A stretch of 64,000 bases of DNA, from the NCBI RefSeq assembly GCF_045037415.1, contig NZ_CP173438.1, one strand, 5' to 3'. Positions within the stretch are counted from its first letter, which is position 1, and every line of letters begins with the position of its first letter. Origin of the DNA: Escherichia coli (lineage in GTDB: Bacteria; Pseudomonadota; Gammaproteobacteria; Enterobacterales; Enterobacteriaceae). A program made the position numbers. This document shows, one piece after another, positions 41,301-44,300 of this stretch.

Positions 41301-44300
41301 GGACGTTGTCCTTTTTCCTCCGGGCGCGTTTGGCGATGAACTGTCGACCCGGCTGGCCTGGCGTTTACATGGTGCAAGCATCTGCCAGGTGACTTCGTTA
41401 GATATTCCAACCGTAAGCGTGCGCAAATCCCACTGGGGAAATGCGTTGACGGCGACGCTGCAAACAGACAAACGCCCGCTATGCCTTTCGCTGGCACGTC
41501 AGGCGGGAGCAGATAAAAACGCCACGTTGCCCTCTGGGATGCAGCAACTGAACATTGTCCCAGGTGTGCTTCCCGACTGGCTGGTTAGCATAGAAAATCT
41601 GAAAAATGTTATCCGCGACCCATTAGCTGAAGCCAGACGGGTGCTGGTGGTGGGGCAGGGCGGAGAGGCAGATAACCAGGAAATCGCTATGCTGGCAGAA
41701 AAGATGGGAGCCGAAGTGGGCTACAGTCGGGCACGAGTGATGAACGGTGGCGTTGATGCCGAAAAAGTGATTGGTATTTCCGGACATCTGCTGGCACCTG
41801 AGGTGTGTATTGTTGTTGGCGCTTCCGGCGCAGCAGCGTTAATGGCGGGCGTACGCAATAGCAAGTTTGTGGTGGCGATTAATCATGACGCCAGTGCAGC
41901 GGTATTTTCACAGGCAGATGTTGGCGTAGTTGATGACTGGAAAGTGGTGCTGGAGGCACTGGTGACAAACATTCACGCAGATTGCCAATAACGTGCTGCC
42001 GGATGATCCTGCCGATGGTTCTGGGCTGGGGACTTGTAGGCCTGATAAGACGCGTCAAGCGTCGCATCAGGCGCTGAATGTCGGATGTGGCGTGCAGCCT
42101 ACAAATCACACCAAATTCAACTTGTTACGATTATCCCGTCAAAGCAATTTTTTCGCTAACGTCCAGACCCCAGTATTCGTGGTGGAAAGCGCCACAACAC
42201 CCGCGTTAATCGCATTACGCGCATCTTCTTCATCGCACACCAGCCCGCCAGCAATCAGCGGTTGGCGGATTTTCTCCGTCACCCAGCCCAGCACTTTAGG
42301 CATGCAGCCTGGCAGGATCTCAATACAATCCGGATTCGATTGCGCAACTTGCTTATCAATGTTGTGAAACGAAATCGAATCAACAATAAACAGTCGATGA
42401 ATACAGAAAAAACCTTCCGCTCTTGCTGCTTTCAGCATTGAGGCTTTGGTACTGATAATTCCGTCCGCCTCGGTTACCAGTTTCAAAAACTGAATCACCA
42501 CTTCTTTATTTGACGCGCCTTCCAGCAAATCAACATGAATAAAAGCATATTTCCCGGCGTTCTTAATCTTTTTAACGATATTACTAATGGTGCAGATATT
42601 GCCGTACAACACGGAAATAAACTGGCATTCAGAGTCGATTGCCAGTTGCAGGCTGGCATTATCTTTAACGGCAGCAATCACCGGATTCTGGCGGAGCAGG
42701 TGTAAGAGGGGCATAAATTATCCTTATTATTTATCCAAAGCGGTAGGTGATGCCGAATCCGGAAGGCGGATAGCGCCACTGTTGTAGTGTTGATTCGTCG
42801 CACAGCAAACGGCAGGTGCCACACTCCAGGCAGCCGTGATAATCAACACGTAAGCCACCTTCAGGTGTGAGCGAAAAAAGACCTGCTGGACAGGCGTTAA
42901 TCAACCGTTGTGCCGTCTGGCGCTCAACGGAGTCAGTCGGAACAATGTGCGGCGCATCAGCAGCGCGCCAGAGATTACGGGCTACAGACATCGCAGACTC
43001 CTGATAACATCGCCCGTCAGATGCCACAGGCCGTGACGACGTAAATGACGCCAGAGCAACTGGCGCAGCGGTGGAACAGGTGTATTCCCCTGATCCCATA
43101 AATCACGGGAAATATCCTGCATTAACCCAGGCCACACCCGATACCAGCCAGGACGTTGCAAAAGCGCCGGAACATGCTGATAACGCTGTAGAACATCCCA
43201 CAGCAGGCTGCGCTCTACGTTGTGATGATAAAGCGGAAACAGATTTTGCGGCTCGCGGTGTTGGCAGGCGCTTATCAGCGTTTGTGCCGCCGCCTGCGCG
43301 CCAGTTAGCGCCATATCCATGCCGCGCACGGAAATTCCGGTATTGACGCAACTGCGCAACGCATCGCCCACCAGCAGCCAGCCGTTACCGGCGTATTGCA
43401 CCGGCATACTGCGCAGGCCACCTTCTGGCACCAGATGCGCACCATACTCCAGTAATTCCGTGTTTTTGATAAGCGGGCGCACTGCCGGATGCGTTTTAAA
43501 GCGAGTCAGCAGCTCGCTTGCCGGAACACTACTTTGCGTAAGGGAGGAGAGCGGGCAAACAATCCCTAACGAGAGCGTTTGTTGATTAGTATAAAGAAAT
43601 GCGCCGCCGGGTAAGTCATCACAGATCCCGCCGCTGAACAACAACGCTGCGCCTTCGTTATTCTCCAGATGAAAACGTTCTTCAATAGCGGATGGTTCCA
43701 GCGTCAGCACTTCTTTGATTCCCAATGCCATCGCTTCGCCAGCAGGACGAGTCACTAACCCGTGGCGTTCCGCCAGGACGCTGTTGGCACCTTCTGCCAG
43801 CACCACATAACGGGCGTGAAGAATATCGTCACCACAAATGACACCACACACCCTGCCGTTTTCTTCATACAGTGCATCTACCGTCGCACCGGGGATGCAT
43901 TCGACACCTTCTTTTTCGGCTTCGGCAACCAGCCACGGATCGAATCGTGCACGTAATACACTCCAGGATTCACCGCCGGGCTGTAAGCTGGAAAACGTCG
44001 TTGCGCCATCTGGCGTTAACAGAGAAAGACTTTCGTGAGTGATGCGTCGTTCAAGGGGCGCGGTCAGGTGAAATTGCGGGAGGAGTTCCGCGAGCGCATG
44101 GGTATATAAACGCCCGCCGGAAAGATTTTTGCTGCCGGGAATCTCCGCTCGTTCCAGTAACAAAACGGATAAACCCGCTCGCGCGCAGCGTAACGCGCAA
44201 GCGGTGCCAGCAATTCCGGCACCGATAATAATAATGTCGCAGTCGTCTTCCATGTCATGCCCCAGATATCCAGAACACAACACCCTAACATAGCGTTACT

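What the first reader, a model, noticed from the sequence alone, without database searches (positions are those of the whole stretch)
41995..42105. REP/BIME elements at convergent gene junctions
REP-type palindromes occur at fucO/xni (296-328), gudD/barA (14274-14303), ygcQ/ygcP (a cluster, 41995-42105) and cysI/cysH (48540-48575). These are ordinary for E. coli-like genomes but they mark operon ends and confirm the chromosomal core character of those junctions, in contrast to the REP-free scr block and rpoS-ygbN insertion.
Basis: partly seen in the sequence, partly recalled or inferred. Interest (0 to 1): 0.1.

Follow-up and report, generated by a model that had tools for sequence, protein, structure and literature searches.

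The report
Ordinary E. coli REP/BIME repeats
These are genuine copies of the well-known REP hairpin repeats that litter the spaces between E. coli genes.

Summary
The window is E. coli chromosome, 99.992% identical to strain SK1144. All four fold into the canonical hairpin with the AA/GC bulge, at -18 to -26 kcal/mol with z-scores of -4 to -6. The Z2 unit recurs at least 40 times per E. coli chromosome.

The ygcQ/ygcP element is a decayed BIME-2-like cluster. An intact Z2 unit is flanked by two internally deleted Y units in alternating orientation. It corresponds to K-12 REP201. In 291 of 5426 complete genomes the REP-specific insertion sequence IS1397 sits in its loop.

- cysI/cysH is a tandem junction inside the cysJIH operon, not a convergent one.
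- gudD has its own intrinsic terminator upstream of the REP.
- Two of the four sites vary between strains.
- REP absence from the scr block is uninformative, because only 0.4-0.5 elements are expected there.
- The rpoS-ygbN insertion is not REP-free. It holds a degenerate REP at 61060-61099.

The most likely function is a bidirectional RNA hairpin in the 3' UTR, acting as an exonuclease barrier and a partial Rho-dependent terminator. Nothing here is novel.

The parts
42036..42072 (+). Intact Z2-type REP in the ygcQ/ygcP spacer, with the GTAG strand on +. Layout: GTAG 42036-42039; outer stem 42040-42046 / 42066-42072; AA/GC bulge 42047-48 / 42064-65; inner stem 42049-53 / 42059-63; loop GTCAA 42054-58.
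   Evidence: blastn-short E 1e-9, 35/37 to Z2. Hairpin -22.0 / -21.6 kcal/mol, z -5.0 / -5.2. At least 40 copies per chromosome in 5305 records. IS1397 sits in its loop with a TCAA duplication in other strains. Lies within K-12 REP201.
42080..42102 (+). Truncated Y-type unit in iREP orientation (head GTCGGATGTGGCGTG, tail CAGCCTAC, about 11-13 nt of the 3' arm deleted). It lies head-to-head with the Z2 unit across the 7-nt linker GCTGAAT (42073-42079).
   Evidence: Gapped alignment to the Y consensus, score 24.5, among the top ~15 loci of the window. Tail inverted repeat 42031-41 / 42097-107. Covered by K-12 REP201, which maps to window 42035-42101. Does not fold on its own (z -0.3).
41998..42016 (+). 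Possible Y-type remnant lacking the inner stem-loop (GCCGGATG-ATCCTGCCGAT). It lies tail-to-tail with the Z2 unit across a 19-nt linker (42017-42035).
   Evidence: The K-12 and 28Eco12 alleles read GCCGGATGATCCTGCCTAC, which is 18/19 to a Y unit with its central 15 nt deleted. The window allele has two more substitutions in the tail and scores only 18.5, within background. It lies outside the K-12 REP201 annotation.
294..332 (-). Z1-like REP in the fucO/xni convergent spacer. The GTAG position reads ATAT. This is the long allele.
   Evidence: E 3e-7. Hairpin -25.7 / -25.1 kcal/mol, z -6.1 / -5.5. K-12 (REP203) and about 71% of genomes have a spacer 50 nt shorter with the palindrome GCCGGATACGACGTTTGCGGCGTATCCGGC.
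14270..14305 (+). Y-type REP in the gudD/barA convergent spacer. GTAG is mutated to GCAG here (K-12 has GTAG).
   Evidence: E 2e-11, 31/32 to Y. Hairpin -20.9 / -21.3 kcal/mol, z -4.4 / -4.0. K-12 alignment.
14209..14236 (+). Z2-like remnant with an internal deletion (GCCTGTTGCGCTACGTATCAGGGCTAC). It lies tail-to-tail with the Y REP, so the gudD/barA element is a decayed two-unit BIME.
   Evidence: Gapped alignment score 27.25, at the top of the background range. CM hit 14207-14235, E 0.75. It is lost together with the Y REP as one 173-nt block in strain MFDS1019527.
48540..48575 (+). Z2-type REP between cysI and cysH, inside the cysJIH operon. GTAG is intact. It starts 16 nt after the cysI stop (48521-48523) and ends 21 nt before the cysH ATG (48597).
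   Evidence: E 1e-6. Hairpin -18.1 kcal/mol on the mRNA strand, z -4.7. Co-directional junction. The junction is present in 5420 of 5426 genomes. K-12 alignment.
61060..61099 (+). Degenerate REP (GTAG + AAGACCGGATAGACGCGTCAGCATCACATTCGGC) just 3' of the flavodoxin-family gene, inside the rpoS-ygbN variable segment.
   Evidence: CM 20.6 bits, E about 1e-3. 28/34 to Z1, score 36 against a background of at most 28. Weak hairpin of -13.7 kcal/mol on the minus strand, z -3.1. Homology with other E. coli ends at about 60978-60988, and this allele is in 1040 of 5426 genomes.

Best explanation
The four sites are copies of the E. coli REP family (palindromic units of types Y, Z1 and Z2). At ygcQ/ygcP and gudD/barA they are arranged as decayed BIMEs. 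They correspond to K-12 REP200-203; the names REP201 and REP203 were read from a published table, and REP200 and REP202 are inferred from the numbering.

At the DNA level they are non-autonomous repeats. They were once spread or rearranged by the REP-associated tyrosine transposase TnpA-REP (RAYT), which needs the 5' GTAG and the bulged stem. They also serve as landing pads for REP-specific insertion sequences.

At the RNA level each unit is transcribed into the 3' UTR of the flanking gene or genes and forms a stable G+C-rich hairpin without a U tract. At the three convergent junctions the palindrome folds on both strands. There it most likely blocks 3'-to-5' exonucleases and helps partial, Rho-dependent termination for both incoming transcripts. 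Between cysI and cysH it most likely protects the upstream cysJI message and damps read-through into cysH, which biases expression toward the upstream genes.

Shown here: family membership, hairpin stability, genomic context, copy number, strain distribution and IS1397 targeting. Inferred from published work on other REPs: the exonuclease barrier, the terminator role and mobilisation by TnpA-REP.
For: - Sequence: four and only four significant matches to the REP consensus, at the stated sites. They align with the published K-12 Y REP.
- Structure: the canonical bulged hairpin forms on both strands, z -4 to -6. No hairpin-plus-U-run terminator was found in the ygcQ/ygcP spacer.
- Context: all four are extragenic. 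Three of 8 convergent junctions carry one, against about 30% genome-wide in K-12 (207 of 704; bioRxiv 10.64898/2026.03.23.713779).
- K-12 names and positions: REP201 maps to window 42035-42101. REP201 is listed 85 nt from an in vitro Rho-binding region. REP203 is listed within a bidirectional terminator.
- IS1397, which is known to insert specifically into E. coli REPs (PMC1525189), sits in the loop of this very Z2 unit with a TCAA duplication in 291 genomes.
- Published mechanism: REP325 is both a partial Rho-dependent terminator and an mRNA stabiliser, and tandem pairs separated by a REP show a bias toward upstream expression. TnpA-REP requires GTAG and the stem mismatch (PMC3333891; PMC8266576).
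Against: - No expression, termination or decay data were examined for these particular REPs in this strain.
- gudD has its own intrinsic terminator upstream of the REP, so the REP may add little there.
- Strains that lack the gudD/barA element or carry the short fucO/xni allele show these units are dispensable.
- Two of the four units lack GTAG (ATAT, GCAG), and the Y units at ygcQ/ygcP are truncated. Present-day mobilisation by TnpA-REP, and gyrase binding of the kind reported for BIME-2 elements, are therefore unlikely at those sites.
Confidence: 0.9

Rival explanations
1. The palindromes act mainly as transcription terminators that define operon ends. On this view their repeat nature is incidental.
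For: - Three of the four lie at convergent gene ends.
- The K-12 REP203 hairpin is listed as a bidirectional terminator, and a Rho-binding region lies 85 nt from REP201.
Against: - None of the four has a U tract, and no intrinsic terminator was called in the ygcQ/ygcP spacer.
- The cysI/cysH unit is inside an operon whose downstream gene must be expressed.
- gudD has a separate intrinsic terminator.
- Five of the 8 convergent junctions in the window have no canonical REP.
- Some strains lack the gudD/barA unit and most carry the short fucO/xni allele.
Confidence: 0.3
2. They are functionally neutral relics of selfish DNA. They are tolerated only where they do no harm, that is in the 3' spacers of genes, and have no adaptive role for the flanking genes.
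For: - There is decay at every site: truncated Y units at ygcQ/ygcP, a deleted Z2 unit at gudD/barA, and loss of GTAG at two sites.
- The elements are present or absent depending on the strain.
- IS1397 disrupts the Z2 hairpin in 291 genomes without loss of the flanking genes.
Against: - The intact Z2 units at ygcQ/ygcP and cysI/cysH are kept, with hairpin-preserving sequence, in 4813 and 5420 of 5426 genomes.
- Published genome-wide data link REPs to altered expression of neighbouring genes.
Confidence: 0.35
3. The matches are chance G+C-rich palindromes or gene-specific terminators, not members of a repeat family.
For: The flanking 'remnants' score within the upper background range when taken alone.
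Against: - The four full units have E-values of 1e-6 to 1e-11 in 64 kb.
- They share 19 invariant columns with one another and with a published REP.
- They recur at least 40 times per chromosome.
- They are annotated as REP201 and REP203 in K-12.
Confidence: 0.01

Closest known systems
E. coli K-12 REP201 (ygcP/ygcQ), with REP203 (xni/fucO) and, by numbering, REP200 (cysH/cysI) and REP202 (barA/gudD)
   Same: Same loci, orientation and spacer lengths: 147 nt at ygcQ/ygcP with no indel, 230 versus 231 nt at gudD/barA, and 73 versus 74 nt at cysI/cysH. The Z2 unit at ygcQ/ygcP is identical to K-12 over 42036-42072.
   Different: - The fucO/xni allele is 50 nt longer and carries a canonical Z1-like unit instead of the K-12 palindrome.
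- The gudD/barA unit has GCAG instead of GTAG.
- The tail of the left remnant at ygcQ/ygcP is further mutated.
BIME-2 (alternating Y and Z2 units joined by the short S linker, usually in tandem copies; PMC3333891)
   Same: At ygcQ/ygcP the units run Y - Z2 - Y in alternating orientation. A 7-nt head-to-head linker and a 19-nt tail-to-tail linker separate them.
   Different: Only one copy is present, and both Y units are internally deleted and no longer fold. It is best called a decayed or atypical BIME.
REP325 (yjdM/yjdN) and other intercistronic REPs
   Same: The cysI/cysH unit lies between tandem genes of one operon. That is the context in which REP325 was shown to attenuate downstream transcription and stabilise the upstream message.
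   Different: REP325 has 12 palindromic units and cysI/cysH has one. No experimental data for cysJIH were examined here.
IS1397 target sites (palindromic-unit loops)
   Same: In 291 genomes an element annotated as IS3-like, IS1397 family, interrupts the loop of the ygcQ/ygcP Z2 unit. It is flanked by a 4-bp TCAA duplication and has TG...CA ends. IS1397 is reported to insert specifically in E. coli REPs (PMC1525189).
   Different: The window itself carries the uninterrupted site.

Membership tests
REP (E. coli palindromic units Y/Z1/Z2) | Sequence match to the Y, Z1 or Z2 consensus | tested here: met
   Four hits at E 1e-6 to 2e-11, 89-97% identity over 32-37 nt. Tile-scan scores 52-62 against a background of at most 28. 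Aligns with the published K-12 Y REP. The consensus was from memory but is consistent with the K-12 REP201 and REP203 annotation.
REP (E. coli palindromic units Y/Z1/Z2) | Imperfect palindrome forming a stem-loop interrupted by the conserved AA/GC mismatch | tested here: met
   All four fold as 7-9 bp outer stem, AA/GC internal loop, 4-5 bp inner stem and 4-5 nt loop, with z -4 to -6. The feature is described in PMC8266576.
REP (E. coli palindromic units Y/Z1/Z2) | Conserved GTAG tetranucleotide 5' of the palindrome (essential for TnpA-REP binding and cleavage) | tested here: inconclusive
   Present at ygcQ/ygcP (42036-39) and cysI/cysH (48540-43). Mutated to GCAG at gudD/barA (K-12 has GTAG) and to ATAT at fucO/xni. 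Two units are therefore family members by descent but probably not transposase substrates.
REP (E. coli palindromic units Y/Z1/Z2) | High copy number dispersed over the chromosome | tested here: met
   The 41-nt Z2 unit gave 216,895 places in 5425 genomes. The Y-containing query had a median of 3 places per genome even by megablast.
REP (E. coli palindromic units Y/Z1/Z2) | Extragenic location, mostly at 3' ends (convergent or tandem junctions) | tested here: met
   All four lie in intergenic spacers: three convergent and one tandem. Published proportions are about 60% convergent and about 40% tandem.
BIME-2 | Y and Z2 units in alternating orientation separated by a short S linker, typically as tandem copies | tested here: inconclusive
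   The ygcQ/ygcP order is Y(remnant) - Z2 - Y(truncated), alternating, with a 7-nt head-to-head linker. Both Y units are deleted and non-folding and there is no tandem repetition. The definition is from PMC3333891.
BIME-1 (Y - L linker with IHF site - Z1) | Conserved, repeated L linker between a Z1 and a Y unit | tested here: not met
   The 44-nt segment after the fucO/xni Z1-like unit contains a sequence fitting the IHF consensus as I recall it (TATCAACACATTG on the minus strand). However, it is single-copy in every genome that has it (1583 genomes, 1 place each), and no Y body follows it.
TnpA-REP (RAYT) substrate / REPtron | Binding and cleavage by TnpA-REP | not testable with these tools
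   This needs biochemistry. Only the sequence prerequisites (GTAG and the bulge) could be scored.
IS1397 target | Insertion of IS1397 in the loop of the unit with a short target duplication | tested here: met
   In strain 28Eco12 the sequence reads ...GACGCG TCAA | TGAACTGAACCCC...IS...GGGGTGCAGTTCA | TCAA GCGTC.... The junction is found in 291 of 5426 genomes and the transposase is annotated as IS1397 family.

The most novel reading that the evidence does not exclude
The fucO/xni site may record a fairly recent REP-mediated rearrangement. Two alleles differing by a 50-nt indel segregate in E. coli. One is a canonical Z1-like unit plus a unique 44-nt AT-rich segment with an IHF-like motif, found in 29% of genomes. 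The other is a different, bulge-less palindrome (K-12 REP203). The break falls inside a shared GCCGGAT...ATCCGGC frame. If the long allele arose by REP-REP recombination or TnpA-REP action at a resident hairpin, then this site, together with the 173-nt presence/absence of the gudD/barA element, would give natural before-and-after pairs for studying how REPs are gained or lost.
Probability: 0.15. Interest if true: 0.3.

Novelty: already known. Interest (0 to 1): 0.07.

Why it matters
It matters little beyond annotation. The elements are textbook REP/BIME repeats, already catalogued in K-12 as REP200-203.

There are two useful outcomes. First, the scan's own reasoning is corrected: REP presence is a weak marker of 'core' DNA and REP absence is an uninformative marker of 'island' DNA at these length scales. 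One supposed convergent junction is really inside an operon, and one 'REP-free' island carries a decayed REP. Second, the strain-to-strain variation at three of the sites (allelic REP at fucO/xni, indel at gudD/barA, IS1397 in the ygcQ/ygcP loop) shows that even 'core' REPs are dynamic. This is consistent with published views of REPs as tunable 3'-UTR elements.

Tried and rejected
- A rigid IUPAC pattern (Stern-type consensus with a fixed 5-nt loop and up to 3 mismatches) found nothing, because loop lengths vary.
- A fuzzy-regex scan timed out.
- Rfam has no REP family. It reported only CsrB and sok in the window.
- The NC_000913.3 feature table held here shows no repeat_region features, so K-12 REP names had to come from a preprint's supplement.
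- I considered whether the fucO/xni long allele is a BIME-1 with an L linker. I rejected this because the linker is single-copy.
- I examined weak covariance-model hits at 20780-20812, 6856-6893 and 33494-33523. They are hairpins with poor REP sequence similarity (E 0.03-0.3) and were not counted as REPs.
- The primary IS1397 papers (PMC94167, PMC169884) are not held in the library.
- I did not run a cross-species scan of genome contigs for the ancestral empty site. The cost was not justified for an ordinary feature.
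Full report
**What the window is.** The 64-kb window is E. coli chromosome. It is 99.992% identical (2 mismatches, 3 gap positions) to strain SK1144, NZ_AP018784.2. It runs from fucO through xni, sdaBC, gudPXD, barA, relA, eno, queE, a sucrose (scr) block, ygcE...ygcQ | ygcP...queD, cysJIH, hok/sok, iap, cysDNC and rpoS to ygbN. It is colinear with K-12 MG1655 in reverse orientation, with three exceptions:
- mazEF is replaced by 54 nt.
- The scr block (26811-33530) replaces 1365 nt of K-12.
- The sequence diverges from K-12 after cysH.

| Site | Coordinates | Strand | Type | E-value |
|---|---|---|---|---|
| fucO/xni | 296-328 | + | Z1-like | 3e-7 |
| gudD/barA | 14272-14303 | - | Y | 2e-11 |
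| ygcQ/ygcP | 42036-42072 | - | Z2 | 1e-9 |
| cysI/cysH | 48540-48575 | - | Z2 | 1e-6 |

A gapped tile scan reproduced them at scores 52-62, against a background maximum of about 28.
- The consensus sequences were from memory. They agree with the published K-12 Y REP used for the TnpA-REP co-crystal (PMC3479197). Aligned with it, the four units share 19 invariant columns.
- Each unit folds on both strands into the canonical REP hairpin: outer stem, AA/GC internal mismatch, inner stem and a 4-5 nt loop. Energies are -14 to -26 kcal/mol and z-scores -4.0 to -6.1. This matches the description in PMC8266576.
- The 41-nt Z2 unit recurs in 5425 of 5426 complete E. coli genomes.
- All four are extragenic.

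**Anatomy of the flagged cluster (41995-42105).** The ygcQ/ygcP spacer is 147 nt (41992-42138). Its parts are:
- An intact Z2 unit with GTAG at 42036-42039 and loop GTCAA at 42054-42058.
- To the right, across the 7-nt linker GCTGAAT, a Y unit in the opposite orientation. It keeps its head (GTCGGATGTGGCGTG) and tail (CAGCCTAC) but lacks about 12 nt of the 3' arm (42080-42102).
- To the left, across a 19-nt linker, a head-plus-tail fragment at 41998-42016. In K-12 and strain 28Eco12 it reads GCCGGATGATCCTGCCTAC, which is a Y unit minus its central 15 nt. In the window the tail has two further substitutions.

The orientation therefore alternates as in a BIME-2, but only the Z2 unit still folds. 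The remnants would not be significant taken alone (scores 18.5 and 24.5). The right one is nevertheless included in the K-12 annotation: REP201 at 2894809-2894875 maps to window 42035-42101. No hairpin-plus-U-run terminator was found in the spacer.

gudD/barA also has a second, decayed unit. It is a Z2-like remnant at 14209-14236, lying tail-to-tail with the Y unit.

**Independent confirmation from other strains.**
- In 4813 of 5426 genomes the ygcQ/ygcP junction is present in one piece at 95-100% identity.
- In 291 genomes an IS3-family element annotated as IS1397 interrupts the loop of this Z2 unit, with a TCAA target duplication and TG...CA ends. IS1397 is reported to insert specifically into E. 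coli REPs (PMC1525189), so nature has treated this sequence as a REP.

1. cysI/cysH is not convergent. Both genes are on the + strand within cysJIH, and the REP lies 16 nt after the cysI stop and 21 nt before the cysH ATG. It is an intercistronic REP.
2. At gudD/barA an intrinsic terminator hairpin (14162-14181 plus a T run) lies between gudD and the REPs. This hairpin is the one listed as a bidirectional terminator in K-12.
3. The enrichment at convergent junctions is real in the window (3 of 8 versus 1 of 49, Fisher p 0.007) and matches the published genome-wide figure of 207 of 704. Even so, five convergent junctions here have no canonical REP.
4. REPs are not a fixed core marker. The fucO/xni allele of the window is in only 1583 of 5426 genomes. 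K-12 and most strains have a spacer 50 nt shorter with another palindrome, REP203. The whole 173-nt gudD/barA element is absent in about 200 genomes.
5. The 'REP-free' contrast has no statistical force. At K-12 density (355 elements per 4.64 Mb) or the window's own density, 0.4-0.5 elements are expected in the scr block and 0.13-0.16 in the rpoS-ygbN segment. Core stretches of 14, 15 and 28 kb are REP-free too.
6. A covariance model built from the four units plus the published Y REP found a degenerate REP at 61060-61099: 20.6 bits, E about 1e-3, 28/34 to Z1, and the fifth-best site in the tile scan. It lies inside the variable rpoS-ygbN segment, whose homology to other E. coli ends at about 60978-60988. 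That insertion is therefore not REP-free. The scr block has no REP (best hit 12 bits, E 0.3).

**How it most likely works.** The functional model below is inferred from published work on other REPs.
- The units are transcribed into the 3' UTRs of ygcQ (+ strand) and ygcP (- strand), and likewise at the other two convergent sites.
- Because the sequence is palindromic, a stable hairpin of about -22 kcal/mol without a U tract forms in both transcripts.
- Work on REP325, together with genome-wide data, indicates that such hairpins block 3'-to-5' exonucleases and act as partial Rho-dependent terminators. Convergent pairs with a REP are expressed at higher levels, and tandem pairs are biased toward the upstream gene (bioRxiv 10.64898/2026.03.23.713779).
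- REP201 is listed 85 nt from an in vitro Rho-binding region, and REP203 is listed within a bidirectional terminator.
- From memory (Liang, Rudd and Deutscher, Mol Cell 2015; not checked here): REPs starting within about 15 nt of a stop codon can stall terminating ribosomes. The cysI/cysH stem begins about 20 nt after the stop, so this is probably not in play.
- At the DNA level, TnpA-REP needs GTAG and the bulge. Only the ygcQ/ygcP and cysI/cysH units keep GTAG, since gudD/barA has GCAG and fucO/xni has ATAT. The other two are likely immobile relics.
- The same preprint cautions that REP effects depend on context and that half-lives are not generally longer. A near-neutral relic status remains a serious alternative.

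**Verdict.** Interest is low. The only mildly interesting residue is the strain-level dynamism at three of the four sites.

Noticed in passing
window 61060-61099: A degenerate REP (GTAG + decayed Z1-like palindrome) lies just 3' of the flavodoxin-family gene, inside the strain-variable rpoS-ygbN segment. That segment is present in 1040 of 5426 genomes.
   Followed up: partly
window 278-381 vs L008 26811-26864: The fucO/xni spacer is allelic. The window carries a 104-nt form with a canonical Z1-like REP plus a unique 44-nt AT-rich segment (1583 of 5426 genomes). K-12 carries a 54-nt form with a bulge-less palindrome (REP203). The indel falls within a shared GCCGGAT...ATCCGGC frame.
   Followed up: partly
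L005 5569-7003 (strain 28Eco12); target = window 42055-42058: IS1397 (IS3 family) is inserted in the loop of the ygcQ/ygcP Z2 REP with a TCAA duplication. The junction is found in 291 of 5426 complete genomes, which probably represents one or a few lineages.
   Followed up: partly
window 14190-14376 vs L007: The 173-nt gudD/barA segment holding both REP units is missing in strain MFDS1019527 and about 200 other genomes. That leaves a 57-nt spacer in which the gudD terminator hairpin has a better U tract.
   Followed up: partly
window 20773-20826: The mazEF toxin-antitoxin genes (691 nt in K-12) are absent. In their place are 54 nt containing a perfect 12-bp hairpin (20783-20812, -23.3 kcal/mol, z -6.4) that is only weakly REP-like (covariance-model E 0.03).
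   Followed up: partly
window 49332-49874: cysH is followed by a hok/sok module (Rfam sok 49456-49612, 104 bits; Hok/Gef CDS) and then iap. The CRISPR-cas I-E locus found at this position in K-12 is absent.
   Followed up: no
window 60950-60982: The rpoS terminator hairpin (GGCCAGTCTCAAGCGAGGCTGGC + T run) appears to correspond to what K-12 annotation calls REP199. I inferred this from the listed 17-nt distance to the ygbN/rpoS bidirectional terminator. It does not resemble Y/Z1/Z2 units and was not found by the REP model.
   Followed up: partly
window 21234-21235 and 60614: Relative to the SK1144 record, the window has 2 extra bases in mazG and 1 extra base in rpoS. Both genes are annotated as frameshifted in SK1144. 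In the window rpoS is an intact 330-aa ORF and mazG reads through to its normal stop, so the SK1144 frameshifts may be assembly errors or real strain differences.
   Followed up: partly
window 7677-8036: A CsrB sRNA gene (Rfam RF00018, 383 bits) lies in the syd-yqcC spacer, as in K-12.
   Followed up: no
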